Source of the DNA: Lytechinus pictus
Taxonomy: Eukaryota
DNA: 60,000 nt
Assembly (NCBI RefSeq): GCF_037042905.1
Contig: NC_087250.1
Coordinates: 18,044,001 to 18,104,000, forward strand
Reading direction: 5' to 3'
How positions within the stretch are numbered: position 1 is the stretch's first letter; each line of letters begins with the position of its first letter. Position numbers and translations under genes: made by a program. Below the pieces are notes generated by a model that saw only the letters and a list, made by a program, of their open reading frames with translations, was not told where the DNA came from and searched no databases. This document shows, in pieces, positions 3,060 through 58,708 of the stretch.

Positions 3060-3351
3060 TCATGAAATAATGATTTCAGCTTCATTTCTTAACCCAACGG
3101 CCTCTAAAGCAAGTTGAAATTTCTGAACCTGTTCACTAGGTCGGACACGATTTCTCCAGTCTTGAAGCATCTCTTTAAGACCAGATTTTGAAACACTGCT
3201 AGCTGATGAATCTGCCCTGACAAGGTACTTCTCCACCTGTGAGTGGGAGAAACTGAGCTTGTAGCCAAGCTCACGAGCATCCTTTGCTTCATAGACTAAA
3301 TCAGTCAACAGCTCTATCATGTCGTTCGAAACGAACTTCATTCGGCCTCTT
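3060..3351 (-). CDS. Last coding exon: C-terminal death domain 5
   Basis: ARELGYKLSFSHSQVEKY...KEMLQDWRNR...LEAVGLRNEAE then TGA; ttttag acceptor. Confidence 0.85.
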
Positions 3352-21300: not shown

Positions 21301-24300
21301 CGGCGGGAAACTTGACACTGCAATCTTGTTTCTCATTGTTCTTTGCCAACGTTACGGACGCATGCGTCCGTAACGTTATTTTAATGAATTCTTGTCTAAA
21401 CATGAAATGTTTTACTTTAACTTATAGGTAAATATCATTGTACATGCCTCAATTTATTTTGTCTGTATAAGTTCATTGTGATTATTTCGCCACATTACTT
21501 TGTTCTGTTGAAAATGAAATAAATTGAAATTGAATTGAAATCGATACCGTAGAAATGTCGGAAATAAAGTTGTATCCCATTTAAATGATTTAGGGCTAGA
21601 TCTTTTAGAAGGAAAGTAGAAATCTCGGGGGCGAAAGTTTCTGGTTTTTTGGCGGTACGTGCAGATGAATGGGGAGGAATCCCTGGCTCCGTGGAAAGTA
21701 AGCATACGTTAGTAAATGATTTTTACTCTCTAGGAGCCCCCTGGCGAGGGGATACTTAGATTTGGTTAGGACGGGGGTGTGCGGCTGAAGGTTTAAAACC
21801 CATACCCATATTTACGAGTCATTTCGGCTAAAAGTGTACCCTTTATTTAAGGGATTTTAATAAAATTTGACAAGCAAAAAATAATAAATAAAAGAAGTTA
21901 TCACCCAAATTTGGAGGAGAATATGGACCCATGTTTAAGGCCAGTATCTAAAAATTGGGGCCATGTTTAGGGAATTTCCAGCATAAAACCATACCGCATG
22001 TTTAGAGATTTTTTTTTTCCAAAAAAGCGACCCGTATGCCTTATTTTGTGAGTACTTTAAATCGCTTTGGGATTAGTTTCATGCTAACAAGGAGCCTGAT
22101 TGCTAAGAGCACCTTATTTGTTTTATGGTTATCAAATAAGTTCTGAAGCTTAATTACCTGGCTCTCAATTTCTCCTCCTTCACGATGGCACGTGATTGTG
22201 ACGTCACCAGCCTTTGTTTCAACATTGAAAGGGACCGAGCGATGACATCTATGGTAAGATTGTTGTCTCGACTTCTCTTGTGTTGCCTAAAAAGATTATA
22301 ACGATTATATTTAATTTCAATTATTGAAAAATGAGAAAAAATATCAAAATTCATATTTTATAATTCTAACTAGAAATCTGGAGTACAGAAACTCCGAAGA
22401 CTAATTTTGCCTGCCCAATTAATCTTCGGCGCGGCAGCGCTATATATTTGTCTGACGCGGCCGGAGCTCCCGACTTCCCACCGGTTGTGAATCGGACTCT
22501 CTACCAGCTTTATAGCCAACACAACCGTTGAAATGATTGATATTGTGTATTAATGTTATTATCAACATGCAATTACAGATGTGAAAAGTTTACTTTTCTT
22601 GATGAATGTGTAAAAAATCCTGATTTTTATTTACAACGGTGCTAATATCTTTAAGCAGAATTATCTATAATAATTTTGATGATAAGAGCAATACTGATTA
22701 TGACAGTGATAATTATATTAAGATTGATAATGACAATAATAATAAAAATAATAATACTATCAATGATAGTGAAATGGTTCAGAGCGCTTCAAATCATTAC
22801 GTCAACCAATAGCATTCAAGTAATTTTGTTCTACCCGCAAACATTCACCTAGCTCATCTGGCTGGAGGGTGGAAAATTTTCAATCAACAATTTCTCAAAT
22901 GATAAAGATCTTCGGGTTTTCAGAGCTGTTTTTTTTTGGCGAATGAATTATAATTCTGAACTTATATGGAGCGACGATGTTTAATACTGACCGCTTCGTT
23001 TCCAGGTAGGTCGTTACACAACTGAAGATTAACTGCAAGCTCTTTTCCTCTTTCGATCCTGTATGGGACGTATGGAGTACAAATAAGTTGCTGTCGGATC
23101 ACCTGTTGTTCAAGAGGAATCAGAACCCACCACTCCGCACAGTGGCCAATGTACAACTCAAGATGTTTCTTGTACAGTCTGCAGTATGGTGGTTTGTCTG
23201 GTGAGCTGGATGACTGCTTCCTTAGAGTTTTCGGTAGATCTTGTTTTACCAATGCCGAAAAGAGAAAAGATCAATGGAATGAATTTTATCACGACTTTCA
23301 GAAAGTCACAATGGTTATTAACTGTATAATTATCAGAAACGGTATTATTAGTGACATAATTAGCTGCTGAAGGAAGCTAATGTATTGAATGAAGACATTG
23401 CGGTGTTGATTTTTTTTTTATAACAAACATGTGTACACGTTGGTATCAATAATGCACAAAGCATTTTCATTCATCTGTGTTTTGGAAACATTTTACATAC
23501 CTTTATTTGGAATATATTTTACATACATTTAATTGTTTGGTTTAAAATTGATACTTGTTGTAATTATATACATTCTTTCTAGCACAAAGCTCAAAGAAGG
23601 GAGGATGTTACAATATCTGCATGTTTATGAGATTTGAGGAGCATGTAATGATCCTACCAAAAGAGGGCGCTACAAACCTTTAGTACTTATAAAATGCTTC
23701 TCTCTCGACTATACAGAAGCTGTGTTATTCTGTTTGACTCTGACTCATAATATAACTTGAAACATGATGGCAGCGGTGAAAAGTTACATATTTCCGTAGA
23801 ACAGTTATTGTTCTTCTCTCTGAACTCTATTATGCATCTGCAAACTGTGTTTTGACCTGGATTTCGCCAGCTTTCTGAGAGTCATTCCTGCATGTGTCCC
23901 ACATATGTAAGTCGGTGTACTGTTTTCTACATTCAGTATAGCTGCTATTAGTATTGGTGTGAATTACCATTCTGACTTACTGTTACTACTGTTGATTGCA
24001 TGATGACTGATAATCATAGTGATGGGTCTCCTTCCGAGCTTCCACATGGAGCTACTTTTGCTAAGCCTTCCATTCAACCCCTGGGCATTTTAATGCGTCT
24101 GCTGGGCATAATGTCGCAGAGGAGTGGAAAATGTGGAGCCAGCAATGGGAAAATTACTCTATTCTCACAAATCTCTCTCAACAACCTGATCGTTATCAGA
24201 CTGCCCTTCTCCTTCACAGTGTTGGACCGGAATGTCTTCGCGTCTACAATGGCATGAAATTTGCTACTGAGGCTGATAGCATCAAATGTTCTGTGATTAT

Positions 24301-27300: not shown

Positions 27301-30300
27301 GCTGAATTTGCCAAAAAGCTTGGAGTTAAGCATAATACCATCTCTCCATACAACAGCAAAGCTAATGGCAAAGCAGAGTCTGCTGTCAAGACTGCAAAAA
27401 GAGTACTTACAAGATGCAATGATACTGGAGATGATGTTGATCTAGCCTTACTCAACATTCGCAACACCCCTACACAAGGTATCCAGAGTAGTCCAGTCCA
27501 GAGATTAATGGGTCGTCGGACTCGTACTCTCCTCCCCACTTCGACTCGGTTGCTTGCACCTGATCGCAACCCACAGGCTGATCTTGAGAGACTGAAAGAA
27601 AGCCAGAAACGTCAAGCAAAGTATTTCAACAGAGATACAAGAAAGTTGAAAGATCTCTCACTAGGAGCAATAGGAGGAGTCAAGCCATTCAACAATGACA
27701 AGAAGTGGAAGAAAGCAGTTATCCTTAAGAAACTGGATGACCGTTCCTATGAAGTTCGCTGTGAGGGCCAGGTTCTCAGAAGGAACAGAGAACACCTCAG
27801 AGCCACATCTGAACCACAAGATGTACATGACACTGGTCCTGCTCTTTACAACTGGAGACGTTCTGATGGTAATCCTCAACCTGATGTACCAACTACTGAG
27901 CGCCATACTTCCCACACCAGGACCCAGATATCACAGACCGCGGATATCAACAGTCCGGAGAAGTCGCGTGATGCAAACTTGAATACCTCAGAAATGGAAC
28001 CAACCAACCCAGCTTCCCTGAGACGATCTAGACGTCAGCGACGCGAACCGCTTAAGATGAGGGATTTTGTTACGTTTTGAACATTTAAACCGAAGAAGGA
28101 AAGAAAGTGAATGCTGAAATAAACAAACTGAACGCTAACATTTCTTAAACATTTTTTTTTTGCTTTAACTCAAGCAAATTTTGAAGTCAGAACTGAACCA
28201 ACAACCAACTCATCTATCAAATCGTTTATTTGGACTTATTTTTATTTTGTGAAATCAACCTGGACAATTTAACCTGGACTTTAAAATCATTTTGTTTGCA
28301 ACTGGAAGAACTGTTTTGAACTCAATTATTATTTTTTTTGCAAGTATTATAATTGTGCAACTACAAAAAATGTGAAAGTCTCATAAACTGGTTTTTTGGA
28401 CATATATTTTGGAAACATTTTACATACATTTAATTGTTTGGTTTAAAATTGATACTTTTTGTAATTATATACATTCTTTCTAGCACAAAGCTCAAAGAAG
28501 GGAGGATGTTACAATATCTGCATGTTTATGAGATTTGAGGAGCATGTAATGATCTTGCCAAAAGAGGGCGCTACAAACCTTTAGTACTTATTAAATGCTT
28601 CTCTCTCGACTATACAGAAGCTGTGTTATTCTGTTTGACTCTGACTCATAATATAACTTGAAACAATTTGATGCAAGATAAAAGAGAAATGCATAGAAAT
28701 ACGCCTCGGTCAATGAAGGGCCGTGCCGGGAATCGAACCCCGAACTTTCAATGTGTAGTCGGGCGGCTTAGACCACTCGGCCACGACACCACGCCGTTAA
28801 TAGTGAGAATGATTACGATCGATGCGACTTGTAATAACTTATTGTAATGATGATCTTAAAAATGTCAAATTTGATATTTTTTAAGTAGCATCAAGGTCAT
28901 TTTAAGAAAGAAAAAAAAGCCCCTATGCTTTACTGTTACCAATGATACGTTTATTGTCTTACTGCAATATCAGTCTTCATAGACTTACCCTTGATTGAGT
29001 CCCACACACGACAAACGATGTCTGGTTTCACCTGCTCTGGATTGACGACCAAAGAAGAGTGTGGTATAGTGATCTTAACAGGCTGGTTGAAGATCAAAGG
29101 TTGAGGGTCACACTTGATCCCATAACAGGCCATTGATTCTCCTTCAGTGATATCGACACCAGGATTGTCTCTTAGGATGGTTAGGGTGATCTGACAAGAA
29201 ACATCAGGTGGAACCGCTCCAGGAGGAAGGTACATTGATATTCCAAGGTCTTCTAGATTGATTTCCTGACTAGAATTTCTGTTGACTTTGACCGAGGCAT
29301 CAGAAGAGTTGGATAGCCGATCTGTGATACAAGGTGAACAACAAAGGTCATGGTACGAACAATATAGAAGAACAAAACTGTATTTTAGGCAATGAAATAG
29401 AACAATTAACAAACATTTTCACAATATACATGATCGATGTATAGGCCTATCAAAAGATGATATAAGCCTTGTGTTTTGATCTCGGCTATTCAAATTCAGT
29501 TCAAAATGGTTTATTTTTGGAATAAAAGAATCAATCGAGACATAAAGACGAATGACAAAAGTTTTGACAATTGTAGGTTAAAATCAATGAGGCAAGGCAT
29601 ATCGTACAGTATCACCAAACACAAAAGCACCAGTTATCACATAGCATAAGATGAACGATTACAGAACACTGACCATACGACAAGACGTCAGCGAACACAA
29701 TCAAGGAAAATAGCATTAAAAAATCTGCTAATATATAAACTACAAAGTTTTAGAATCAATATGATTCACAAGTATTCAGATATATGCAAAAAAATCAATG
29801 CTAAAATCAGAATATTGATTTCCAGATCTTAAAAAAGTATTAAGAATGGGAATGAATGGGAAGGTGACGCGAAAGGTGAAGTTAATAGGAATACGGGAAA
29901 TGAATAAGGGAAAATGTATTGAGAGATTTAATATAAAAGTACATAGGAGGTAAAGTATTATGAGAAATGTTAGGAAGAATAACGAGAGCGAAACGAAGAA
30001 TAAGAACAAAAAGAGAGGAAGTGGAAGGGCAAGAAGAATCAAAGATGGAAGAACATTACTATATTAAACGAGAGGAAACAGGTAATTGAATGAAAAGACG
30101 GAAAAATTGAAATACAAAGTTAATATACATATAGTGGGAATATAGGTACAAACCACTTGTTCCTAATTTTAATACCCCAGGTAAAAAAACCAGTTGAAAC
30201 CAGTTGAAATTTTAACTGGTTTCAACTGGAGTCAACTGGTACCAGTTGAAACCAATTGGCACAACTGGTAAACTCCCACCATGCCAGTATATTCCAGTTG

Positions 30301-36300: not shown

Positions 36301-39300
36301 TATTGATAAACTTTAAAATTCAATAACTTCTTGTTATCCTATTTTGATGAAATTTTCATCATTTTGCTCTGTGAATTTTACTCAAGTATTATTTAGATGT
36401 AAATATTTTCGGCCCGGACCATCCCTTTAATCCTCTGATAAAATTTTGTATTTCATTTTTTTTTTTTGCTTTGTCTTGCGTTTTTAAACATGTTCTGGGA
36501 ACTGCTTTTTGAAAGTTGTCAGCATTAACAAGTTGTCTTTTTCCGACAGTTACCATAGTAACAGTCAGAGGCCAGTGCTTCTCAGCCAATCAAAAGCAAT
36601 GATTTCACTGAAATAGTCGGCACTGACAATCATGAAATACCCATCAGATGTTAGCAGATAATGTGCAACATAGACTCCTAGATACATATATGCAAACATA
36701 CATAGTCTAAGTCTTTATTATTAAAATAAATGTATAGGTATAAGGTCGAGGCAATTTTATCTCTGCGATGTCAATTTCAGAAGTATTCCCAAGACCATGT
36801 GAACTTACTATACATGTTGTAATAAAAATGATGATGTGCTGTCTATCATTTATAATTGAATCATTGAAATATGGAACTTAGAGAAGTTTCACTATCCCAT
36901 GTATTTTCTTTATGTGCAGATATAATTTTACACCACTGAAATTTTGTATTACGGTATTCACTGTACTTATTATTTTTCATTCCATTGTTTTTTTTTTCTA
37001 ATCTTCAGATACATCGCATCTACCAGCAAAGATCAAGTGCCACTACAGGAAAGGAAGGTACCTGTTTCACGTTTCCTCTTCAGAGCCAGTGAGGGCCCCA
37101 AGATCTCAATAAATAATAATTAAAAAAAGACTCCTTTATCATTCCTTTAAAAATAGTACATATTATTTATTGAAGGTAAATGCTTAGATGCATTATATTC
37201 AAATTTTGTCTCCAAGCTAGCATGTAAAAATTGGATTGACTACATATTTACTGTGTAAGTTAATGATCTTTGTTGACACATAATACAAGAATTATACACA
37301 GCATGTTACAGTTTGTAACATAATTTTCTTTCATTAAATTCCTAGTTTAAATACCATATAGATGTTTTTTGTGACTTTTGTCATTCTCTGATGTTTTTTG
37401 GTACAGATTTCAAGAGACTGAGGGATTGATTTACCAGAGCAAGTTTACAGTCCAATCCTGTTATATTGTGCATGTGGAAATTAACAAGGTTTCAATACAA
37501 TGCTACAAATTTACCTTGATTCATTTCATCAGTCCTATGTGCAAGGATAATTATTTCACTTGTCCATGCACATTGTTATAACAGGAGTGGACATTCAATG
37601 TAAAGATTATTGAAGATAATTTATAATTGAAATAACCGCCTGAGAGGGTGGGGGGGTGTGTTGGTACCAATATTATAATGTGTGTGTGCGCAAGGAAAAC
37701 GAAGGAGTGATTATATGAGAAGAGTAAAAGATCGGGAATGTACATATCCACATGATTCATTTTTGTTTATGCTATACATTGCAGGGTGTTTCTAACTGGT
37801 ACCACTTGACAATTTATGTTTCCAACTGGTCCTAACTGGTGCTTCCAACTTGTTCTAACTGGCACCAGTTGACAACTGGTGTTTCCAACTGGTTTTAACT
37901 GGCACCAGTTGACAACTCATGTTTCCAACTGGTCCTAACTGGCACCAGTTGACAATTGGTGTTTCCAACTGGTTTTAACTGGCACCAGTTGACACCTCAT
38001 GTTTCCAACTGGTCCTAACTGGCACCAGTTGACAATTTGTGTTTCCAACTGGTTTTAACTGGCACCAGTTGACAACTCATGTTTCCAACTGGTCCTAACT
38101 GGCACCAGTTTACAATTGGTGTTTCCAACTGGTTTTAACTGGCACCAGTTGACAACTCATGTTTCCAACTGGTCCTAACTGGTACCAGTTAGGACCAGTT
38201 GTCAACTGGTACCAGTTGCTAACTGGTACCAGTTAGGACCAGTTGCCAACTGGTATTTCCAACTGGTACCAGTTACAATTTGTCAACTGGATTCCAGTTG
38301 AATCCAGTTGATTCCAGTATTCCAATTTCCATATTGAATCCAGTTCGCTAACTGGAATCAACTGGTACCAGTACCAGTTGGATGAACTGGTCCTTAACTG
38401 GTTTTTTGACCTGGGACACATTACAGTGCTATGTTTTTCGATGGACGGTCAGTAATAATAAATTGCAGTCATGTACGAAGACTTTGGTGACGATTTCGTG
38501 TTTTATTCAATGCTCTTACCTTTAGTAAACTGTACATCATCCAAGGAAGGTAATCTACAGTAAGCAATTAATACAAAATCATTGAACATCTAACATCAAA
38601 TTGCGCAGTAATTACAATTACTATATGAACTGCATTACAATCATTTAGAATATTCAAAAGAAAACCGTAATTTTTGATGGACTTCTGATAAAAATACATC
38701 AATGAAATGTATTCACATATTGTGCGCCTCTTTAAATTGCAAACTATGTGTTTTTAAGCTACACGAACTAATTAAACCCAGTGAATATTGAAAGGACAAC
38801 ATTCCAACAGAAAGACAGTTTGAATGATATAAGATAAACTCCACACGAGCATAACACTGAATATTTAATCAAAATCGGGTTTGAAATAAGGTTTTCTCTT
38901 TTAAAGTTTCGCTCGATTAAAAAATATCATTTGTACAATATGCACATTCTGGTCGGTATGCAAAAGAGAGGACTGATGATGTCACCCACTTGCTATTTCC
39001 TTTGTATTTCATTATATAAAATATTCCAGATTTTCTCCTTATTCTCATATGAAGAGAGGTTTCATTCCACCCCGAGCATGTGGTATTACCATTGCTTTAA
39101 CAATTTTATGGTTCAGTTAAGATGGTGCTCATTGTCAAATCTGTAAAATTGAAATATTACACATTTCAAACAAAAAAAATATATAAAAGGAAGCGTTAAG
39201 GACATCATCGACTCTTTCATTTACATGTCACTGATTTGTGCATATAACTTTTTTTTTATGAAAAATAAGCAAATCTTCAAAATATCATATAATTTTACAT

Positions 39301-42300
39301 TCGATTGTGATGAAATTTCCAATGTTGTGGTTGATTGATTTTTTTTCTGGGGTGGACTTGATCTTTGAAATGAAAATACATGTACTACAGAACCCGTTTG
39401 TACCGGAAATTTAGTTTAAACAAAATAATTGTTCACCTTGCCAATATCATCTGTCTGATCATTTCATCCTTTGCATAGTGGATTGGTAGGCAATCTGCTT
39501 CATCCTTAATATCAATCCTGGCTCCATGTTCCAAGAGATAGAACACCAATGCCTTCTCAGGAGATAACCTGCCACTGTAGTATTTTTCGGATACCTGCAA
39601 CGGATGAATAACTTAGTTTGTGTGGTAATTATACATACAACCTTCAAATACCGATTTTTGAAAGGCTCAACGAAAATAAAAAATCATTGTATGAATTAAA
39701 TATTAACTTTCTCACAAATTTAATAAAGTGAAAATAGTCTTATATGCTTTTTCATTATATCTTAATTGAATGTTATGCATCGTATTGCAATTAGCAGTGG
39801 ATGCCGAAAATGCCATGATGATCAGTTGACTTAAATGTTTTAAAATCCAAGTGTGCACTGAAAATTGAGGCAAATGTATTTTACAAGACTAACCTTTCTG
39901 AGTGTTTCGGTGCCTTCAACATTCTGTTTCTTTTGGTAGCATAATTTGATAGCTTTATGAAGACATGTCTGACCGTCATTAGACTGTACATTGATATCAG
40001 ATCCTTTAGCAATCATCCTTTCAATGATGGATGTAAGTCCGTACATCACAGCTAGATGGATGGCCACTGAATCATTCTGGATTGACAAAATTATATAAAC
40101 GTAGTAGGAAAATTAGCATTCCTGTGAATGGTATTAGAAGCAGCATCAGTAAAATATTCGTCGTATATAAGATTGTATTAAACTTAAATTGTGAACTCTA
40201 TATGGATGATAATCAATGACCTTTGTTTTTCTTCAAGAGTTTTACTGCATTTGATATATTCGATCAGCTGAGGGACATGCATGTCTGCAGGTATTAATTA
40301 AATTGTTAATATAGTTTAAAGCCAGGCTTTTAAAGTTGTAATATGAAAGAGAGAAGAAGAATGATTAAACTTTTTTTTTCAAATTTGTATCAGTACTTTC
40401 GGTAAAATTTCCATGGGCGGTATTCTGAAAATTGTGTTAACTGTGGTGTGTTTGTGCTAACACGGTTTTCAGAATACCGCCCCAGGGTGTATGCATGACC
40501 TACCTTAGCATTCAACTTGTCGATAAGCAGACCAGCAATGTCTCTATGCCCAAGGGTAATCGATTGATGTAAGGGTGTTTGGCCGCGAATGTCTTCTGTG
40601 TCACTAAGTGCTCCACCTGTAAGCAGGAATTTAACAACGTTAATGTAACCATGCTGAACAGCGATGTGTAATGATGTTCTCCCTTCATTGTCTGCTTTAT
40701 TCACCTCCAGGGAGTCACCTTTTGAGAGCAATGCGTGTTGATCTTCTGCGTTTCGATTTACCTCACCTGTAAATTTGAGCAGATATTCGATGACGCCAAA
40801 ACTGCAATTTGTTGCAGCACAGTGCAACACAGTCCAGCCATTGGCTGTTCTCTTATTCACATCTGCTCCTTGGCTGATAAGGTATTTGATGACGTCATAA
40901 TGAGCATTCTCAACAGCATAGTGTAATGCAGCCCGACTATCATTATCCTCCTTATTGACCTCAGCTCTCTCACTGATCAGATATTTGATGACGTCAATAT
41001 GACCATTCTCACCAGCACGGTGTAATGCAGCCAAACCATCATTATCCTCCTTATTGACCTCAGCTCCCTCACTGATCAGATATTTGATGACGTCAATATG
41101 ACCCTTCTCAGCAGCACGGTGTAATGCAGTCCCACCACCATTATCCTCCTTATTGATCTCAGCTCCTTCACTGATCAGATATTTGATGACGTCAATATGA
41201 TCACTGTTGGCAGCACATTGTAATGCAGTCCCACCATCACTATCCTCCTTATTGACCTCAGCTCCCTCACTGATCAGATATTTGATGACGTCAATATGAC
41301 CATTCTCAGCAGCACGGTGTAATGCAGTCCATCCATCATTATCCTCCTTATTGACATCAGCTCCCTCACTGATCAGATATTTGATGACGTCAATATGACC
41401 ATTCTCAGCAGCACGGTGTAATGCAGTCCATCCATCATTATCCTCCTTATTGACCTCAGCTCCCTCACTGATCAGATATTTGATGACGTCAATATGACCA
41501 TTCTCAGCAGCACGGTGTAATGCAGTCAAACCATCACTATCCTCCTTTTTGACCTCAGATCCCTCACTGATCAGATATTTGATGACGTCAATATGACCTT
41601 TCTCAGCAGCACGGTGTAATGCAGTCCCACCACCATTATCCTCCTTTTTGACATCAGCTCCCCCACTAATCAGATATTTGATGATGTCAATATAACCATT
41701 GTTAGCAGCACGGTGTAATGCAGTCAAACCATCATTATCCTCCTTATTGACCTCAGCTCCCTCACTGATCAGATATTTGATGACGTCAATATGACCGCCC
41801 CAAGCAGCACAGTGAAATGCAGTCAAACCATCACTATCCTCCTTTTTGACCTCAGCTCCCTCACTAATCAGATATTTGATGATGTCAATATAACCATTGT
41901 TAGCAGCACGGTGTAATGCAGTCAAACCATCATTATCCTCCTTATTGACCTCAGCTCCCTCACTGATCAGATATTTGATGACGTCAATATGACCGCCCCA
42001 AGCAGCACAGTGAAATGCAGTCCCACCACGATTATCCTCCTTATTGACCTCAGCTCCCTCACTGATCAGATACTTGATGACGTCAATATGACCATTCTCA
42101 GCAGCACGGTGTAATGCAGTCTTACCACCATTATCCTCCTTATTGGCCTCAGCTCCCTCACTGATCAGATATTTGATGACGTCAATATGACCATTCTCAG
42201 CAGCACGGTGTAATGCAGCCAAACCATCATTATCCTCCTTATTGACCTCAGCTCCCTCACTGATCAGATATTTGATGACGTCAATATGACCATTCTCACA

Positions 42301-44350
42301 AGCACGGTGTAATGCAGCCAAACCACCATTATCCTCCTTATTGACCTCAGCTCCCTCACTGATCAGATATTTGATGACGTCAATATGACCACGGTTAGCA
42401 GCACGGTGTAATGCAGTCCCACCACCATTATCCTCCTTATTGACCTCAGCTCCCTCACTGATCAGATATTTGATGATGTCAATATGACCATTGTTAGCAG
42501 CACGGTGTAATGTAGTCAAACCATCATTATCCTCCTTATTGACCCCAGCTCCCTCACTGATCAGATATTTGATGGCGTCAATATGACCAATGTTAGCAGC
42601 ACGTTGTAATGCAGTCCCACCACCATTATCCTTCCTATTGACCTCAGCTCCCTCACTGATCAGATATTTGATGACTTCAATATAACCATTCTCGGCAGCA
42701 TGGTGTAATGCTGTCTCACCCCACTTATTCTTCTTATTGACCTCAGCTCCTTCCCTGATCAGATTTTTCATGATGTCAATATGACCATTCATAGCAGCAC
42801 GGTGTAATGCAGTCCGTCCATGATTACCCTCCTTATTGACCTCAGCTCCCTCACTGATAAAATATTTTATGACGTCAATATGACCATTCAAAGCAGCATG
42901 GTGTAATGCAGTCCGTCCATGATTATTCTCCTTATTGACCTCAGCTCCCTCACTGATCAAATATTTGATGACGTCAATATGACCACTGTTAGCAGCACGG
43001 TGTAATGCAGTCCGTCCATGATTATCCCCCTTATTGACCTCAGCTCCTTCGCTGATCAAATATTTGATGACGTCAATATGACCATTCTCAGCAGCATGGT
43101 GAAATGCAGTCCCACCACCATCATCCTCATTATTGACCTCATCTCCTACGCTGATCAAATATCTGATGACGTCAAAATGACCATTCTCAGCAGCATGGTG
43201 TAATGCTGTCTCACCCCACTTATCCTTCTTATTGACCTCAGCTCCTTCCCTGATCAGATTTTTTATGACGTCAATATGACCATTCCTAGCAGCACGGTGT
43301 GATGCAGTCCATCCATGATTACCCTCCTTATTGACCTCAGCTCCCTCACTGATCAAATATTTGATGACGTCATTATGACCATTCAAAGCAGCATGGTGTA
43401 ATGCAGTCCGTCCATGAATATTCTCCTTATTTACCTCAGCTCCCTTACCGATCAAATATTTGATGATGTCAATATGACCGCTGGTAGCAGCACGGTGTAA
43501 TGCAGTCCGTCCATGATCATCCCCCTTATTGACCTCAGCTCCCTCACTGATCAGATATTTGATGACGTCAATATGACCATTCTCAGCAGCACGGTGTAAT
43601 ACTGTCTCACCACGATTATCCTCCTCATTGACTTCATATCCTACGCTGATCAAATATCTGATGACGTCAAAATGACCATTCTCAGCAGCATGGTGTAATG
43701 CTGTCTCACCCCACTTATCCTTCTTATTGACCTCAGCTCCTTCCCTGATCAGATCTTTTATGACGTCAATATGACCATGGATAGCAGCCGTGCGTAGTCG
43801 AGTCCAAAGGTCCATACATGTAGCTCCGAGAAAAAGAAATGTTTAATATTTTGATTGTCATAGCTAGCTGAGTGAAACTTTCACTATTTGTTTTTCTGTG
43901 TGTTGCTAAAATGAAACCAGCCTTAAAATGCATACATGTAACTCTACAACTGTTGTAAATTATTTGTGTTTTTTTGTTGGATGGATGAATTACCTTGTAG
44001 AAAAGAAATATCCCAGATATACATGTACATCACTATAATACATTATTTTTAAAGGAACTATCAGCACAGTATCACTAGATAAAGGTGCTATGTCAGGTGT
44101 GTAGTCAGATGTTACCCCGAGTTATCATATTTAGGTAGATGGGATGGTTAACGATGTTAGGAAGGGGTAGTCTTTACTTCATTTTTCAGAGTAAGAATAC
44201 AGCCAGGACTAACATGGAGTCATTTACATTGATGTTAACCCGATATACACAGACTTTTATAGACCCAGTACAGAGCTACAAGCGAAATCTAAAAATGAAA
44301 AATGTATAGGCCACAAAGGCTTGCAACGCCAACTCACCTAACCACGCCAT
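3060..44350 (-). CDS. Multi-exon gene: ankyrin-repeat / ZU5-UPA / multi-death-domain protein (PIDD/UNC5/ankyrin-like), about 23 exons, about 2362 aa
   Basis: Hand-assembled exons join in consistent codon phase (7089 nt) from ATG 44350 to TGA 3060. All junctions are GT-AG except the exon 12 acceptor. Domains recognised from motifs. Confidence 0.8.
3490..4976. mobile_element. Palindromic Tc1/mariner-pogo-like non-autonomous element
   Basis: TA|ccgtgtga...tcacacgg|TA; inverted homology along most of its length (e.g. 4001-4050 vs 4430-4480). Confidence 0.7.
5597..5624 (-). CDS. Exon 22: 28-nt linker (VEPDYEKNQR)
   Basis: CAG acceptor, GTAAGG donor; phase 1-2 is required to reach the last exon. 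Confidence 0.7.
5876..5970 (-). mobile_element. tRNA-derived SINE head
   Basis: Minus-strand A box (gtggccgagtgg) and B box (ggttcgatcccc) followed by SINE body. Confidence 0.65.
6133..6277 (-). CDS. Exon 21: UPA-like (VHPRSLLSGGCNTIHVNL...VRVCIEQG)
   Basis: AAG acceptor, GTATGT donor; phase 0-1. Confidence 0.75.
6644..6775 (-). CDS. Exon 20: UPA-like (GVRQNYSLSEH...DDIKLSCLSG)
   Basis: TAG acceptor, GTAAGC donor; phase 0-0. Confidence 0.75.
6887..8847. mobile_element. Tc1/mariner-like non-autonomous element hosting a nested Helentron-like repeat
   Basis: TA|cagtgcgtat..gtttacact vs degenerate agtgcgaac..tatacacact. Confidence 0.55.
6961..8013 (+). mobile_element. Helentron/HINE (DINE-1-like) element
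   Basis: Poly-T start, subterminal inverted repeats gtctcacctgcat/atgcaggtgagac, internal ~125-bp tandem repeats; second copy at 48719-49514. Confidence 0.7.
8985..9211 (-). CDS. Exon 19: end of ZU5-2 / start of UPA-like domain
   Basis: ORF 8913..9227; TAG acceptor, GTATGT donor; phase 1-0. Confidence 0.8.
9344..10851. mobile_element. piggyBac-like MITE with TTAA TSD
   Basis: TTAA|ccctaaatagaccggg ... cccagtctatttaggg|TTAA. Confidence 0.8.
9584..10459. mobile_element. hAT-like MITE nested in the piggyBac-like MITE
   Basis: caggggcgtcgatcc/ggatcgacgcctctg TIRs; 8-bp TSD cccgaaag/ctcgaaag; repeated gcgagcgcgaagcgcgagc motif. Confidence 0.78.
11024..11371 (-). CDS. Exon 18: ZU5 domain 2
   Basis: GIIDHDGGDL...IRVSIPSGAIP...LLTPIIQC...KPATVALPH; phase 1-1. 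Confidence 0.9.
11777..12025 (-). CDS. Exon 17: death-like domain 4
   Basis: DLSQRLDLPASEI...MVLQMLQKWAKQGGTRLRLLEMV; AAG/GTAGGT; phase 1-1. Confidence 0.8.
12226..12519 (-). CDS. Exon 16: death-like domain 3
   Basis: LDLAKALRLD...LAWRLFHQWCR; TAG/GTATGA; phase 1-1. Confidence 0.78.
12770..17568. mobile_element. Academ-type non-autonomous foldback element (4.8 kb)
   Basis: Long TIRs (a/t)agtc..gacta, 3-bp TSD tta, ~1 kb high-identity arms plus degenerate inner symmetry. Confidence 0.8.
13836..14407. mobile_element. Kolobok-like MITE with TTAA TSD, nested in the foldback left arm
   Basis: TTAA|aggggaatcca ... tggattcccct|TTAA; absent from the right arm. Confidence 0.78.
17778..17906 (-). 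CDS. Exon 15: acidic linker (EPDEDEDEENED)
   Basis: CAG acceptor, GTAGGA donor; phase 1-1. Confidence 0.75.
18130..18147 (-). CDS. Possible 18-nt microexon (GRLDQR)
   Basis: CAG acceptor, GTATAA donor; phase 1-1, not needed for frame. Confidence 0.4.
18496..18755 (-). CDS. Exon 13: death domain 2 (not in the ORF track)
   Basis: EIPDCTLLQFSRRINKEKFYEIGKQLGFDDLELQHIEHR...IQMLSMWK, paralogous to exon 11; phase 2-1. Confidence 0.82.
19018..19069 (-). CDS. Putative exon 12: 52-nt linker whose acceptor reads AC instead of AG
   Basis: Strong pyrimidine tract, GTAAGT donor, open frame with the required phase 1-2, but no AG. Confidence 0.4.
19733..20019 (-). CDS. Exon 11: death domain 1
   Basis: FYDMGIALGFTIAELDRVE...YDMLLAWR death-fold pattern; phase 2-1. 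Confidence 0.85.
20380..20425 (-). CDS. Exon 10: 46-nt linker
   Basis: TAG acceptor, GTAAGT donor; phase 1-2. Confidence 0.72.
20743..20905 (-). CDS. Exon 9: UPA-like C-terminal part (IVSLRDLLAK...AFVIRYT)
   Basis: CAG acceptor, GTAGAA donor; open; phase 0-1. Confidence 0.78.
21029..21747. mobile_element. hAT-like palindromic MITE nested in a poly-G-ended repeat
   Basis: ~220-bp TIRs; 8-bp TSD gggggtac/ggggatac. Confidence 0.75.
22158..22286 (-). CDS. Exon 8: UPA-like (ATQEKSRQQSYHRCHRSVPFNVETKAGDVTITC)
   Basis: tttttag acceptor, GTAATT donor; phase 0-0. Confidence 0.78.
22992..23239 (-). CDS. Exon 7: end of ZU5-1 / start of UPA-like domain
   Basis: ORF 22962..23252; AAG acceptor, GTCAGT donor; phase 1-0. 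Confidence 0.8.
23606..23764 (+). repeat. 5' LTR core (159 bp)
   Basis: TG...CA; near-identical to 28507-28665. Confidence 0.85.
24000..28080 (+). pseudogene. gag-pol (Gag zinc knuckles, protease LDSGA, RT VADD, RNase H, integrase) broken by stops and frameshifts
   Basis: ORF fragments at 24131, 24286, 24759, 25221, 25606 and 26902 in PR-RT-RH-INT order. Confidence 0.92.
28507..28665 (+). repeat. 3' LTR core (159 bp)
   Basis: Follows the PPT; TG...CA. Confidence 0.85.
28697..28791 (-). mobile_element. tRNA-derived SINE head
   Basis: A box and B box (ggttcgattccc) on the minus strand; similar to 5876-5970. Confidence 0.6.
28989..29321 (-). CDS. Exon 6: ZU5 domain 1
   Basis: LGISMYLPPGAV...FNQPVKITIPHS ZU5 motifs; CAG/GTAAGT; phase 1-1. 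Confidence 0.88.
30190..31510. repeat. Left subterminal array (CCAGTT/AACTGG motifs, ~178-bp higher-order units)
   Basis: Repeated ccagttggaacccatagacctcccataacccacttgaaacccatt blocks. Confidence 0.85.
30575..30667 (-). mobile_element. Short SINE/LINE 3' end with (TTA)n tail inserted in the array
   Basis: (AAT)n followed by GC-rich body, flanked by a duplicated attgata. Confidence 0.55.
32965..33258 (+). promoter_or_regulatory. CpG-rich Pol II promoter-like region with a candidate first-exon donor
   Basis: GC box, NRF1 motif TGCGCATGCGCA 32985-32996, octamer 33031-33038, CCAAT 33065, YY1-like GCCATCTT 33089, cag|GTAAGT at 33253. Confidence 0.55.
33822..34008 (+). mobile_element. 3' fragment of an RTE-clade LINE
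   Basis: Translates (frameshifted) to RGRPKTTW...EEEMKSVNMTWG...QKKAQ...EWRS..FVAALH, followed by a taag-like tail. Confidence 0.6.
34477..35541. repeat. Recent ~530-bp tandem duplication; older related copy at about 36755-37110
   Basis: 34477-35004 is nearly identical to 35005-35541. Confidence 0.9.
35840..36426. mobile_element. Kolobok-like MITE with TTAA TSD
   Basis: TTAA|agggatggtcc ... ggaccatccct|TTAA. Confidence 0.8.
37790..38400. repeat. Right subterminal array (40-bp units alternating as 80-bp dimers)
   Basis: ccaactgg(tttt/tcct)aactggcaccagttgacaa... tandem. Confidence 0.88.
38520..38554 (-). CDS. Exon 5: 35-nt linker microexon (LPSLDDVQFTK)
   Basis: TAG acceptor, GTAAGA donor; phase 2-1 bridges its neighbours. 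Confidence 0.7.
38792..39366. mobile_element. Degenerate Kolobok-like MITE
   Basis: Decayed aaaggacaa.../ggggtggacttgatcttt ends; internal motifs shared with 35840-36426. Confidence 0.45.
39437..39594 (-). CDS. Exon 4: ankyrin C-cap (LVFYLLEHGARIDIKDEADCLPIHYA)
   Basis: ttgcag acceptor, GTGAAC donor, phase 0-2. Confidence 0.85.
39894..40076 (-). CDS. Exon 3: divergent ankyrin repeats (NDSVAIHLAV...GQTCLHKAI)
   Basis: CAG acceptor, GTTAGT donor, phase 0-0. Confidence 0.85.
40504..43823 (-). CDS. Exon 2: 33 ankyrin repeats in a single 3.3-kb exon
   Basis: ORF 40390..43815; consensus KEDNxGxTALHRAAxxGHIDVIKYLISEGAEVN; donor AAG|GTAGGT at 40503; weak GAG acceptor. Confidence 0.93.
40855..43725 (-). 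repeat. Coding tandem array of 29 full near-identical 99-bp units
   Basis: 99-bp periodicity without indels, read directly in DNA and protein. Confidence 0.95.
44338..44350 (-). CDS. Exon 1, coding part (MAWL); the exon probably starts at 44376 after an acceptor
   Basis: gcaccATGG Kozak context, in-frame stops upstream, GTGAGT donor; phase 1 matches exon 2. Confidence 0.6.
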
Positions 44351-54385: not shown

Positions 54386-54414
54386 ACCGGCCAGAAGAAA
54401 TTGGTAAGAATTTT

Positions 54415-56370: not shown

Positions 56371-56552
56371 GTTTGAAATAGGATCTCTATCAATTTGCAA
56401 AAAACTACTTCACCCAAATGAGGTCAAATGTACATGTACATTAGTATTTACACATATATATATTTACAAACATCTGCATTAAAGAAATAACTCCATTGTT
56501 ATTGTCTTGAGTTTTTTTGTTTCTTAGTTTCTAATCAATATACCCATGTGAC

Positions 56553-58299: not shown

Positions 58300-58667
58300 T
58301 GCTCCTAAAATCTTTAGACTCATGCACACCCGCCTTCACCTCAAACTACTAAGACAACTCAGAACCTACTTTAACTCTTTGTTTTGGCTCCTTCGTACAA
58401 ACTCATCACTGGGATCCTATAAACATTGAATCTGGTATACCCCTCTTCTTCATCGCCCGGCCCACTCCTTAGCCAAAGCCATACTGCTTCTTCCCTTCAG
58501 CCCGATATTCCTCTTGCAATCTTCTCAAAATGAATACTGCTTGATTATCCGTCGTACCTTTCCCTGGCATAAAACCAAAGCGCATCTCTTCCACTTCCAC
58601 CTTTCTCCAAATTGTCTTGGACCCTTTCCACAATTATTCATTGCATGTTCGAATAACTTCACACTCC

Positions 58668-58669
<2 letters not shown>
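58300..58669 (-). mobile_element. Degraded RTE-clade LINE RT fragment
   Basis: YRSVKLFEHAM, FGFMPGKGTTD, FILRRLQEEY and LYEGAKT motifs with frameshifts. Confidence 0.7.

Positions 58670-58708
<39 letters not shown>
58670..58708 (+). repeat. (TAA)13 microsatellite
   Basis: Read directly. Confidence 0.97.

What the first reader, a model, noticed from the sequence alone, without database searches (positions are those of the whole stretch)
40855..43815. Natural DARPin-like ankyrin array: homogenised scaffold with a hypervariable binding face
Seen: about 30 indel-free 99-bp units in one exon with a nearly invariant framework (GHIDVIKYLISEGAEVN). Substitutions concentrate at the beta-turn (KW/NR/DH/IH/NH/NG/ND/SD), the residue before T (E/R/W/G/L/K), H-x (R/H/C) and AA-xx-G (EN/TS/LN/RN/NS/MN/NI/NN/NR/WG/EK). 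Established: these largely coincide with the positions randomised in DARPins (xDxxGxTPLHLAAxxG), and fungal NLR repeat domains diversify this way by unequal exchange. Inference: a rapidly re-shuffled ligand-recognition domain coupled to death-domain signalling, i.e. a candidate variable intracellular immune receptor family.
Basis: partly seen in the sequence, partly recalled or inferred. Interest (0 to 1): 0.85.

Follow-up and report, generated by a model that had tools for sequence, protein, structure and literature searches.

The report
Sea-urchin hypervariable ankyrin-array death-domain gene
A sea-urchin gene opens with about 30 near-identical ankyrin repeats whose differences sit on the repeat's binding face, continues into ZU5 and death-domain signalling modules, and belongs to a large family whose repeat arrays are reshuffled quickly, so it may be an intracellular recognition protein, though its function is untested.

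Summary
Window 40849-43818 (minus strand) holds 30 in-register, indel-free 99-bp ankyrin units inside one 3.45-kb open exon. Variation is concentrated at unit positions 2, 3, 5, 10, 13, 14 and 33. Six of these are the positions randomised in DARPins.

The exon is the first coding exon of one gene of at least 40.8 kb: ANK array, ZU5, UPA-like, four death or death-like domains, ZU5, UPA-like, death domain. RNA-type contigs show it spliced.

The nearest named proteins are all from sea urchins. The genome holds at least 72 related ZU5 exons. Sixteen fetched arrays have 20 to about 160 units. Units resemble their array-mates, and inner units are not colinear with those of a paralog whose 3' flank is 98.5-99.2% identical.

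dN/dS at the variable face is above 1 in this array by likelihood (6.6, P=8e-4). It is only 1.2-1.3 family-wide and not significant in 13 independent pairs.

Rapid reshuffling of a recognition surface is therefore supported. Diversifying selection is only moderately supported. An immune-receptor role remains inference.

The parts
40506..43842 (-). First coding exon, holding the whole ankyrin domain. The open frame is 40390-43842. The splice donor lies at about 40505/40506.
   Evidence: The open frame is listed. In one search the loose end of RNA contig X1 record 2 at 40078 continues with letters that stand at 40506-40521. tblastn of P0002 and P0003 ends at 40504.
43813..43815 (-). Probable start codon ATG (protein begins MDLWTRL...), preceded by a pyrimidine tract and AG.
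   Evidence: Read from the sequence. Paralog frames begin with the same Met-Asp-Leu context (SMDLLTAV in L020 and L021). This is an inference; no 5' RNA evidence was obtained.
40849..43818 (-). Thirty in-register 99-bp (33-aa) ankyrin units (units 0-29). Unit 0 is an N-terminal cap-like unit.
   Evidence: Pfam Ank_2 scores 1328.7 bits and Ank matches 32 stretches. The AlphaFold2 model shows 31 helix pairs with period 33 and mean pLDDT 70.9.
42730..43719 (-). Higher-order repeat. Units 1-5 are repeated as units 6-10 (five-unit, 495-bp period).
   Evidence: For units 1, 3, 4 and 5 the best partner lies at offset +5, with 93-96% DNA identity. Mean identity peaks at lag 5.
41641..42036 (-). Two-unit duplication (units 18/19 and 20/21). 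Units 24 and 25 (41245-41442) are 99% identical.
40506..40848 (-). Diverged C-terminal ankyrin units (30, 31) and the exon tail. These are orthologous, unit for unit, with the paralog at C6:17.94 Mb.
   Evidence: Units 29-31 match units 70-72 of L009 with 3-5 differences each. There are 11 nonsynonymous and 4 synonymous codon differences over 148 codons.
39892..40078 (-). Exon 2 (ankyrin-like linker).
   Evidence: Pfam Ank E=1.6e-6. Contigs cover exactly this block, and a joint 39592 to 39892 with GT..AG ends on the minus strand is seen in 4 of 4 runs.
39437..39592 (-). Exon 3.
   Evidence: X1 record 2 has no differences and carries the window's letters at 39489, 39494 and 39500, where the paralog differs.
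38520..38554 (-). Small exon 4 (encodes LPSLDDVQ...).
   Evidence: The 12-letter loose end of the RNA contig matches only 38543-38554. AG and GT flank the exon.
28990..29328 (-). First ZU5 domain exon.
   Evidence: Pfam ZU5 E=2.3e-12, 47.5 bits. It aligns to the ZO-1 and UNC5B ZU5 domains. tblastn.
20735..23243 (-). Three exons of the region after ZU5-1 (22965-23243, 22137-22283, 20735-20911), called UPA-like by position only.
   Evidence: Colinear with P0002 residues 966-1148. There is no Pfam or PDB sequence hit, so the UPA label is inferred.
18503..20045 (-). Two death-domain exons (19788-20045 and 18503-18754).
   Evidence: Pfam Death scores 21.5 bits (below the 22.6 cut-off) and 23.6 bits (above it). 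tblastn.
11778..12511 (-). A death-like exon (12224-12511, no Pfam hit) and a death-domain exon (11778-12026).
   Evidence: Pfam Death 20.2 bits, below the cut-off. Colinear with P0002 residues 1372-1552.
11004..11360 (-). Second ZU5 domain exon.
   Evidence: Pfam ZU5 E=6.3e-14. tblastn.
8943..9206 (-). Exon after ZU5-2, carrying the motif K-I-S-F-S-T-R-H-L-E.
   Evidence: The F-S pair is kept in 12 of the 12 closest loci of this genome.
3066..3353 (-). C-terminal death-domain exon.
   Evidence: Pfam Death E=1.2e-5, 25.7 bits. tblastn.

Best explanation
The array is the N-terminal ankyrin-repeat domain of one large, expressed sea-urchin gene, window about 3066-43815 on the minus strand.

Its order of parts is: ANK array (32 units), short linker exons, ZU5, UPA-like region, two death domains, two more death or death-like domains, a second ZU5, a UPA-like region, and a final death domain.

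The gene belongs to a sea-urchin family of dozens of loci that automatic annotation calls 'ankyrin-1-like' or 'uncharacterized'.

The array is kept homogeneous and is resized by unequal exchange and duplication of units within arrays (concerted evolution with birth and death of units). The reading frame and the 33-residue period are held by selection. The seven positions on the beta-turn and inner-helix face are free to vary, and at some of them (5, 10, 3) change is favoured.

The most likely way it works is inferred, not shown. The long solenoid would offer a many-sited, fast-changing protein-binding groove. Engagement of that groove would be passed to the ZU5/UPA/death-domain modules, which recruit death-fold partners for cell-death or immune signalling.
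For: Anatomy:
- The array lies in one open exon.
- Pfam finds Ank, ZU5 twice and Death in downstream minus-strand exons.
- Fourteen exon blocks are colinear with residues 1-1885 of the 1907-aa sea-urchin-type protein P0002.

Expression:
- Intron-less contigs with GT..AG joints occur in 4 of 4 runs laid.
- One contig matches the window with no difference, at three sites where the paralog differs. It links the ankyrin exon to exons 2, 3 and 4.

Family:
- The ZU5 exon has 72 matches in the window's own genome.
- The array DNA has 38 matching pieces, from 15 scored of 142 candidates.
- Of 58 relatives of the UPA-like exon, 56 carry names, all from three sea-urchin species.

Turnover:
- Unit counts per open frame run from 20 to 147, and to about 160 at one locus.
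- The nearest neighbour of a unit lies in its own frame for 644 of 797 units, and for 26 of 32 in the window.
- The array holds five-unit and two-unit higher-order repeats.
- The 3' flank is 98.5% and the ZU5 region 99.2% identical to the paralog at C6:17.94 Mb. That paralog has 73 units, and only the last three are colinear.

Selection:
- No stop codon is seen where about 6.4 are expected from 146 distinct variants in the window array. About 99 are expected from 2480 or more variants over all arrays, and only 3 of 16 loci are interrupted, once each.
- Spacing is 33 aa nearly throughout.
- Framework omega is 0.36-0.85, below 1 at P<0.05 in 15 of 18 arrays.
- Omega at the seven variable sites is 6.6 in the window (P=8e-4). 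None of 15 random sets of seven framework codons reaches this.
- In 346 independent pairs, position 5 has omega 3.0 (P=4.6e-6) and position 10 has 2.15 (P=0.0011).
Against: - No ligand, no tissue of expression and no response to challenge is known. The runs are contigs of uncertain kind, and none is on record as RNA.
- Family-wide omega at the variable face is close to 1: 1.16 (P=0.09) and 1.26 (P=0.003). Twelve of 18 arrays are not significant and one is significantly below 1. Relaxed constraint explains much of the pattern.
- The likelihood test assumes one tree for units that recombine, which is known to inflate such tests.
- Counting in the window alone is not significant.
- The variable residues are strongly linked within units (mutual information z of 4 to 30). 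Much of the 'diversity' is therefore a set of unit types copied around.
- In the window array, framework omega is not distinguishable from 1 (0.83, P=0.49).
- Two of the four Pfam Death hits are below the curated cut-off, and one death-like exon has no hit.
Confidence: 0.55

Rival explanations
1. The gene encodes a neutral, fast-turning scaffold. The protein is a generic adaptor or an elastic solenoid, as in ankyrins or NOMPC. Its surface positions are simply unconstrained, and array size drifts by unequal exchange. The variable face carries no selected diversity and the gene has no recognition or immune role.
For: - Omega at the variable sites is near 1 over the family, and 12 of 18 arrays are not significant.
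- The best solved-structure sequence matches are ankyrin-1 (E=1e-110) and NOMPC.
- From recall, the DARPin positions are by design the unconserved surface positions of natural repeats, so the overlap is expected under relaxed constraint.
- Variable residues travel as linked unit types.
Against: - Five of 18 arrays, the window's among them, have omega significantly above 1.
- Positions 5 and 10 reach omega 2-3 with small P in 346 independent pairs.
- The exon end differs from the paralog seven times more than the adjoining intron does: 15 of 357 sites against 9 of 1491, P=3.6e-6.
- Expansion to dozens of loci joined to death domains resembles other lineage-specific expansions of marine invertebrates discussed in PMC8195603 (passages read).
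Confidence: 0.3
2. The array is a decaying or selfish expansion: a non-functional product of repeat amplification, or an assembly artefact, with no protein function.
For: - Three of 16 fetched loci are interrupted once.
- Framework omega in the window is not different from 1.
- Public gene models of relatives are fragmentary.
Against: - The frame is open over 1150 codons here and 4895 codons next door, against about 6 and 7 stops expected.
- There are no indels within the in-register units.
- Spliced transcripts of the window's own allele are present.
- Units are 86% identical, different enough to assemble.
Confidence: 0.05
3. The gene is the sea-urchin orthologue of canonical ankyrin (ANK1-3), tying membrane proteins to spectrin.
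For: Annotation pipelines name relatives 'ankyrin-1-like' and 'ankyrin-3-like'. It shares the ANK, ZU5 and death-domain parts list.
Against: - Canonical ankyrin has 24 repeats, a ZU5-ZU5-UPA cassette and one death domain. It is a single gene in echinoderms (PMC5135030, passages read).
- Here there are 32 units, and 20 to about 160 in paralogs.
- The two ZU5 domains are separated by four death or death-like domains.
- The genome holds dozens of copies.
Confidence: 0.02

Closest known systems
Highly internally conserved ANK/TPR/WD repeat domains of fungal NOD-like receptors (Dyrka et al. 2014, PMC4986451; abstract and passages read)
   Same: Both have tandem repeats with a conserved framework, hypervariable sites on the concave face of ankyrin repeats (inner helices and beta-hairpin), and variation in repeat number attributed to recombination between repeats. 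Both are coupled to cell-death signalling domains in an intracellular protein.
   Different: - No NACHT or NB-ARC domain was found in the ten frames scanned.
- The signalling part here is ZU5/UPA/death domains.
- The host is an animal. That paper found high internal conservation in only 0.8% of metazoan ANK/TPR/WD repeats.
- Arrays here are far longer (20 to about 160 units, against 7 to over 16).
- Protein identity of units (74% pairwise, 84% to the consensus) is just under their 85% criterion.
- Polymorphism among individuals is untested here.
DARPins (designed ankyrin repeat proteins; general design from PMC8683736 passages; the randomised positions are recalled from Binz et al. 2003)
   Same: Both are stacks of 33-residue consensus-like repeats with a fixed framework. 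Variation falls at positions 2, 3, 5, 13, 14 and 33. DARPin chains are among the best solved-structure sequence matches (6mol_A, E=2e-99).
   Different: - This is a natural gene with 30 repeats, not 2-3.
- There is an extra variable position 10 (R/H/C/Y, where DARPins have Leu).
- Variable residues are linked as unit types rather than independently randomised.
Canonical ankyrins ANK1-3 (PMC5135030, passages read)
   Same: Both have an N-terminal ANK solenoid followed by ZU5, UPA and a death domain. Ankyrin-1 is the top solved-structure sequence match (7tw3).
   Different: The repeat number is neither 24 nor fixed. There is no ZU5-ZU5 tandem. There are five death or death-like domains and two ZU5 modules. 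The family is multi-copy and fast-evolving.
PIDD, NLRP1 and CARD8 (ZU5-UPA or FIIND modules that cut themselves at HF|S or SF|S; PMC3210808, abstract and passages read)
   Same: A repeat domain is followed by ZU5-UPA and a death-fold domain. The exon after ZU5-2 carries S-F-S about 41-49 residues after the conserved ZU5 histidine. In CARD8 the distance from H252 to F296 is 44.
   Different: - There is no Pfam FIIND hit.
- The residue after F is S only in the closest subfamily. It is H, L, R, C or T elsewhere.
- The first ZU5 module has R-L-Y at the matching place.
- Cleavage is untested.
Vertebrate ANKDD1A/B (ankyrin repeat and death domain proteins; recalled, no call)
   Same: Ankyrin repeats and a C-terminal death domain lie in one intracellular protein.
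   Different: From recall, these have about ten diverged repeats, no ZU5/UPA, and are low-copy. They were not compared here.

Membership tests
Ankyrin repeat superfamily (Pfam Ank, Ank_2) | 33-residue helix-turn-helix repeats matching the Pfam models. | tested here: met
   Ank_2 scores 1328.7 bits and Ank matches 32 stretches. The AlphaFold2 model has 31 helix pairs with period 33.
Canonical ankyrin (ANK1-3) | 24 ankyrin repeats. | tested here: not met
   There are 32 units here and 20 to about 160 in paralogs. The definition is from PMC5135030.
Canonical ankyrin (ANK1-3) | A tandem ZU5-ZU5-UPA cassette followed by one death domain. | tested here: not met
   The two ZU5 exons (28990-29328 and 11004-11360) are separated by four death or death-like exons, and a fifth death domain lies at the C-terminus.
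Canonical ankyrin (ANK1-3) | A single gene in echinoderms. | tested here: not met
   The ZU5 exon has 72 matches in the window's own genome. The statement about echinoderms is from PMC5135030.
Death domain (Pfam PF00531) | A match at or above the curated score of 22.6 bits. | tested here: inconclusive
   Of five candidate exons, two are above the cut-off (25.7 and 23.6 bits), two are below (21.5 and 20.2) and one has no hit. The C-terminal part of homologue P0002 scores 23.0 bits.
DARPin-like variable-face pattern | Variation confined to positions 2, 3, 5, 13, 14 and 33 on a constant framework. | tested here: met
   All six positions are among the seven highest entropies. The same positions lead in 19 of 19 frames analysed, with positions 1, 10, 20, 26 and 32 added in some.
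Fungal-NLR-type highly conserved repeat domain | A NACHT or NB-ARC nucleotide-binding domain in the same protein. | tested here: not met
   There is no such Pfam hit in the ten minus-strand frames of the gene. The protein appears to start with the array.
Fungal-NLR-type highly conserved repeat domain | Internal repeat identity of 85% or more over at least 100 residues. | tested here: inconclusive
   Identity is 86% in DNA, 74% pairwise in protein and 84% to the consensus. Sub-blocks such as units 22-28 are higher.
Fungal-NLR-type highly conserved repeat domain | Repeat-number polymorphism among individuals. | not testable with these tools
   Only paralogs could be compared.
Fungal-NLR-type highly conserved repeat domain | Positive selection at concave-face sites. 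| tested here: inconclusive
   In the window omega is 6.6 (P=8e-4). Family-wide it is 1.16-1.26. Five of 18 arrays are significant.
Self-cleaving ZU5-UPA / FIIND (PIDD, NLRP1, CARD8) | An HF|S or SF|S motif at the C-terminal end of the ZU5 domain. | tested here: inconclusive
   ZU5-2 carries I-S-F-S-T, and F-S is kept in 12 of the 12 closest loci. The histidine-to-F distance is 41-49 residues. ZU5-1 has R-L-Y. The positional match to the known site rests on distances only.
Self-cleaving ZU5-UPA / FIIND (PIDD, NLRP1, CARD8) | A match to the Pfam FIIND model, or to a solved FIIND or PIDD chain. | tested here: not met
   Only ZU5 and Death were found, and only ZO-1 and UNC5B chains matched.

The most novel reading that the evidence does not exclude
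Sea urchins carry a family of NLR-independent intracellular 'tripwire' sensors. Giant ankyrin arrays of 20 to about 160 DARPin-like units are reshuffled on a short evolutionary time scale and serve as diversified recognition or bait surfaces. A FIIND-like ZU5-UPA module that cuts itself at a conserved F|S ties the array to death domains. Binding to the array, or pathogen-driven destruction of it, would then free a UPA-death-domain fragment that seeds a death-fold signalling complex. This would be an animal counterpart both of NLRP1/CARD8 and of the fungal receptors with highly conserved repeats.
Probability: 0.12. Interest if true: 0.9.

Novelty: new variant of a known kind. Interest (0 to 1): 0.6.

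Why it matters
Sea urchins are a classic case of expanded innate-immune gene families. From recall (Rast et al. 2006) these are the Toll-like, NOD-like and scavenger receptors. The family described here is not among those usually listed.

My full-text searches found no paper that describes it. I searched:
- sea urchin / death domain / ankyrin / ZU5;
- purpuratus / death domain / ankyrin repeats / expansion;
- ankyrin repeats / death domain / echinoderm;
- ZU5 / UPA / death domain / expanded / invertebrate.

Papers of subscription journals are not in that library. In particular, the 2006 Developmental Biology papers on the sea-urchin genome could not be checked.

If the arrays are recognition surfaces, three things would follow:
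- The 'homogenised scaffold plus hypervariable face' strategy, known from fungal NLRs and copied by protein engineers in DARPins, would extend to animals.
- An animal would supply natural libraries of ankyrin binders.
- There would be a testable link between repeat-array instability and death-domain signalling.

If the arrays are not recognition surfaces, the family is still a clear example of concerted evolution holding open frames of up to 4895 codons.

Tried and rejected
1. I first took the 'P-H-S-S' after the ZU5-1 core to be the self-cleavage site. The passages of PMC3210808 place the site about 44-53 residues further on, and 'PHSL' and 'PHCS' variants occur. The idea was dropped. ZU5-1 has R-L-Y at the matching place.

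2. The UPA label could not be confirmed by sequence. The exon 22962-23270 has no Pfam or PDB sequence match. No FIIND hit was found either.

3. No RNA holder is listed among the public runs. The four runs laid are contigs whose kind is a guess. Only their intron-less joints are used as evidence.

The array itself, its 5' end and any variation among individuals were therefore not examined.

5. Earlier findings of this scan gave nothing for this genome or sequence. One word search gave only an analogous case in an alga.

6. The paper search for the annotation name 'ankyrin repeat protein RF_0381' returned nothing relevant. The P. lividus genome paper and the amphioxus paper do not mention this family.

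7. Comparing dN at the variable sites with framework dS gives ratios of 1.3 to 2.75 with very small P. I do not rely on these. Synonymous divergence is itself higher at the variable codons, and choosing pairs by framework similarity biases framework dS downward.

8. The expected-stop calculation uses units taken from open frames, so 'zero observed' holds by construction within a frame. The fair count is 3 interruptions among 16 loci.

9. The structure model was not searched against fold libraries, because the fold is not in doubt.
Full report
THE OBSERVATION

Tandem Repeats Finder reports one array at 40852-43778 with period 99, 29.6 copies, 87% matches, no indels and score 4161. It lies inside a single open frame, 40390-43842 on the minus strand (1150 aa). 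No other frame of 80 aa or more overlaps the array.

I cut the frame in the register used for DARPins, with D as position 1. Units 0-29 then occupy 40849-43818. Unit 30 is in register but diverged, and a last unit is shifted. Pfam confirms ankyrin repeats: Ank_2 scores 1328.7 bits and Ank matches 32 stretches. A single-sequence AlphaFold2 model of the 1141-residue product, counted from the ATG at 43815, shows 31 helix pairs with a 33-residue period. Its mean pLDDT is 70.9, and confidence is lost only after about residue 985.

Units 1-29 are on average 86% identical in DNA and 74% in protein. Identity to the consensus is 91% at 26 framework positions and 57% at positions 2, 3, 5, 10, 13, 14 and 33. 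Those seven positions have the seven highest entropies, so all six DARPin positions fall in the top seven of 33 (chance 6.3e-6).

The DARPin list is recalled (Binz et al. 2003). The one check I could make is the alignment to DARPin chain 6mol_A, whose repeats differ at 2, 3, 5, 13, 14, 26 and 33. In the model, positions 2-5 open the first helix, position 10 lies in it, positions 13-14 close it and position 33 is in the long loop. That these form the concave binding face is established knowledge, restated for fungal ankyrin repeats in PMC4986451.

WHAT THE ARRAY BELONGS TO

Minus-strand frames downstream carry the following Pfam matches:
- a further ankyrin-like exon;
- ZU5 at 28951-29418 (E=2.3e-12);
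- Death at 19722-20078 and 18488-18760;
- Death at 11724-12029;
- ZU5 at 10956-11399 (E=6.3e-14);
- Death at 3060-3395.

A 1907-aa protein found by homology search (P0002) has all of these in one chain. tblastn lays its residues 1-1885 on the window in order, in fourteen blocks from 43.0 kb down to 3.07 kb. This is therefore one gene of at least 40.8 kb: ANK array, ZU5, UPA-like, DD, DD, DD-like, DD, ZU5, UPA-like, DD. 'UPA-like' is by position only, since neither Pfam nor PDB sequences match those exons.

Two of the four Pfam Death hits are above the curated score and two are below. One further death-like exon has no hit.

The product probably starts at the ATG at 43813-43815. A pyrimidine tract and AG precede it, and distant paralogs start with the same Met-Asp-Leu context.

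EXPRESSION

Contigs of four public runs were laid on 38900-40950. They cover only the exon blocks 39437-39592, 39892-40078 and, in run X1, 40504-40948. In 4 of 4 runs they carry the joint 39592 to 39892, whose skipped ends read GT..AG on the minus strand.

X1 record 2 has no difference from the window. It carries the window's letters at 39489, 39494 and 39500, where the nearest paralog differs. Its loose ends continue into 40506-40521, the end of the ankyrin exon, and into a 35-nt exon at 38520-38554 with AG and GT flanks. Another X1 contig over 40618-40948 carries the paralog's letters, so both genes are transcribed.

The runs are not on record as RNA. The intron-less joints are what shows transcripts. 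Tissue and expression level are unknown.

THE ORGANISM AND THE FAMILY

The nearest named proteins are from sea urchins. P0003 of Lytechinus pictus is 92-97% identical, and others come from L. variegatus and Strongylocentrotus purpuratus. They are named 'ankyrin-1-like', 'putative ankyrin repeat protein RF_0381' or 'uncharacterized'. Of 58 relatives of the UPA-like exon, 56 carry names, and all of these are from those three species.

In the window's own 812-Mb genome the ZU5 exon has 72 matches. There are tandem copies on the same contig at 17.83, 17.93, 18.01, 18.07 (this gene) and 18.14 Mb, and clusters elsewhere. The array DNA matches at least 38 pieces, from 15 scored of 142 candidates.

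I fetched 16 such loci. Almost all are single open frames of ankyrin units spaced exactly 33 residues apart, with 20 to 147 units per frame. The neighbour at 18.147-18.163 Mb has a 4895-codon frame (147 units) plus a 425-codon frame (12 units). Three of the 16 loci are interrupted once.

Canonical ankyrin has 24 repeats, a ZU5-ZU5-UPA cassette and one death domain, and is a single gene in echinoderms (PMC5135030, passages). This family fails each of those tests.

HOW THE ARRAY EVOLVES

- Units 1-5 recur as units 6-10 (93-96% DNA identity). Units 18/19 recur as 20/21. Units 24 and 25 are 99% identical.
- Over all fetched arrays, the nearest neighbour of a unit lies in the same frame for 644 of 797 units, and for 26 of 32 in the window.
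- The paralog at 17.94 Mb is 98.5% identical to the window over 1.85 kb of 3' flank and 99.2% identical over 2.7 kb around the ZU5 exon. Its 5' flank is only 85-88% identical.
- That paralog has 73 units. Only the last three correspond to the window's, with 3-5 differences each. Inner units have no colinear partner.
- Either the arrays were rebuilt after a recent duplication, or an exchange between paralogs had its breakpoint at the array edge. Both readings mean that the arrays are the unstable part.
- Divergence from that paralog rises from 9 of 1491 sites in the intron and downstream exons to 15 of 357 sites in the exon end (P=3.6e-6). Eleven of the fifteen codon changes are nonsynonymous.

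SELECTION

Frames stay open. From 146 distinct variants in the window array, about 6.4 stop codons would be expected by chance and none is seen. Over all arrays about 99 would be expected from 2480 or more variants, against three interruptions. The zero within a frame holds by construction, so the three interruptions are the fair count.

Framework omega is 0.36-0.85, below 1 at P<0.05 in 15 of 18 arrays. The window (0.83, P=0.49) is not among the 15.

At the seven variable positions the results are as follows:
- The all-pairs estimate for the window is pN/pS 2.5-3.0.
- Thirteen independent nearest-neighbour pairs give 22 nonsynonymous to 2 synonymous changes (omega 2.25, P=0.20).
- Codon likelihood (GY94 on a FastTree topology) gives omega 6.6 (LRT 11.2, P=8e-4), and 9.1 on a tree built from framework sites only.
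- Fifteen random sets of seven framework codons give 0.35-3.7.
- Across 18 arrays the same test is significantly above 1 in five (window, L017, L022, L018 and the 147-unit array). It is significantly below 1 in one (L013_0) and not significant in twelve.
- Pooled independent pairs give omega 1.16 (345 pairs, P=0.09). When pairs are chosen on framework sites only, they give 1.26 (346 pairs, P=0.003).
- By position, omega is 3.0 at position 5 (P=4.6e-6), 2.15 at position 10 (P=0.0011) and 1.7 at position 3 (P=0.013). It is about 1 at positions 2, 13 and 14, and 0.6 at position 33.

There are caveats. Units recombine, so a single tree is wrong and inflates likelihood tests. Synonymous sites at these codons are few. 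The variable residues are strongly linked within units (z of 4 to 30), so they behave as unit types copied around. Even so, there are 23 distinct seven-residue signatures among 29 units here, and 511 among 797 overall.

My reading is that the face is largely unconstrained. Real but moderate positive selection is concentrated at positions 5, 10 and 3, and it is stronger in some arrays, this one included.

HOW IT PROBABLY WORKS

Shown:
- a long, open, expressed ankyrin solenoid with a variable face;
- the solenoid fused to ZU5 and death domains;
- fast array turnover;
- membership in a large lineage-restricted family.

Inferred:
- The groove binds proteins, as in ankyrins and DARPins.
- Different arrays bind different partners.
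- The death domains recruit death-fold adaptors.

An immune or cell-death sensing role fits the pattern of lineage-specific expansions in marine invertebrates discussed in PMC8195603 (passages) and the fungal parallel in PMC4986451. Nothing here tests it.

A LEAD ON THE SIGNALLING HALF

PIDD cuts itself at HF|S and CARD8/NLRP1 at SF|S. The site lies at the end of the ZU5 domain. In CARD8, F296 lies 44 residues after the conserved H252 (PMC3210808, passages).

The exon after the second ZU5 reads K-I-S-F-S-T-R-H-L-E. F-S is kept in the 12 closest loci of this genome and in an L. variegatus protein. More distant members have F-C, F-T, F-H, F-K, F-L or F-R. The histidine-to-F distance is 41-49 residues. 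The first ZU5 module has R-L-Y there.

There is no Pfam FIIND hit, and the positional match rests on distances only. Self-cleavage is a testable idea, not a result.

COMPARISON AND NOVELTY

The closest known system in behaviour is the set of highly internally conserved ANK/TPR/WD repeats of fungal NLRs. The closest in parts are ankyrin, PIDD and UNC5. The closest in surface pattern are DARPins.

The family is a member of none of the first two groups. It has no NOD domain, and it lacks 24 repeats, a ZU5-ZU5 tandem and single-copy status.

Four full-text searches found no description of the family. The 2006 sea-urchin genome companion papers are outside the library and may mention it.

I file it as a new variant of a known kind: an animal, NOD-less, ZU5/death-domain version of the 'homogenised repeat scaffold with a hypervariable face'.

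VERDICT

- Interest is 0.6. The family, the array sizes and the turnover are striking and testable. Function is unproven, and the evidence for selection is mixed.

Noticed in passing
G000:C6:18147343-18163324 (loci L024, L023, L025), about 43 kb beyond the window's end: The neighbouring paralog has a single open frame of 4895 codons made of 147 ankyrin units. A second frame of 425 codons (12 units) follows, 23 bases away. Together they make about 16 kb of uninterrupted 99-bp units, one of the longest ankyrin arrays I know of.
   Followed up: partly
window 8943-9206 (-), with loci L027-L053: The exon after the second ZU5 domain carries S-F-S-T-R-H-L-E. F-S is conserved in the 12 closest paralogs and replaced by F-C, F-T, F-H or F-K in distant ones. 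The position resembles the HF|S / SF|S self-cleavage site of PIDD, NLRP1 and CARD8.
   Followed up: partly
window 39013-40860 against L009:1-1851: Divergence from the nearest paralog is seven times higher in the end of the ankyrin exon (15 of 357 sites) than in the adjoining intron and exons (9 of 1491 sites). This is the reverse of the usual exon/intron pattern. The 5' flank is only 85-88% identical, so the two genes look like a mosaic with a breakpoint at the array.
   Followed up: partly
window 24065-28080 (+): A retrotransposon-type element (reverse transcriptase, RNase H, integrase zinc-binding and core domains) sits in the intron between the ZU5-1 exon and the next exon, on the opposite strand.
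   Followed up: partly
window 51878-56409 (-) and 58545-59999 (+): A second LTR-type element has zinc-knuckle gag, reverse transcriptase, RNase H and integrase in two long open frames. A further reverse-transcriptase frame runs off the end of the window.
   Followed up: partly
window 30665-31481 and 37834-38190: There are intronic tandem repeats: a 161-bp unit in 5 copies (89% matches), and a 40/80-bp unit in about 9 copies containing the inverted motif ACCAGTTG..CAACTGGT. Related 160-163-bp repeats occur at 7246, 13152, 16674 and 48799.
   Followed up: no
window 39144: All four runs laid show an extra A after 39144, at very high summed depth (1,400 to 8,900), within a short block at 39107-39175. 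This is probably a dispersed repeat family in the intron rather than part of the gene.
   Followed up: no
proteins P0003, P0065-P0069 and P0068 (public gene models): Public gene models of this family are fragmentary. Arrays are shortened to a few units, and ZU5/death parts are annotated as separate 'uncharacterized' proteins. Counts of the family taken from annotation would therefore be unreliable.
   Followed up: no
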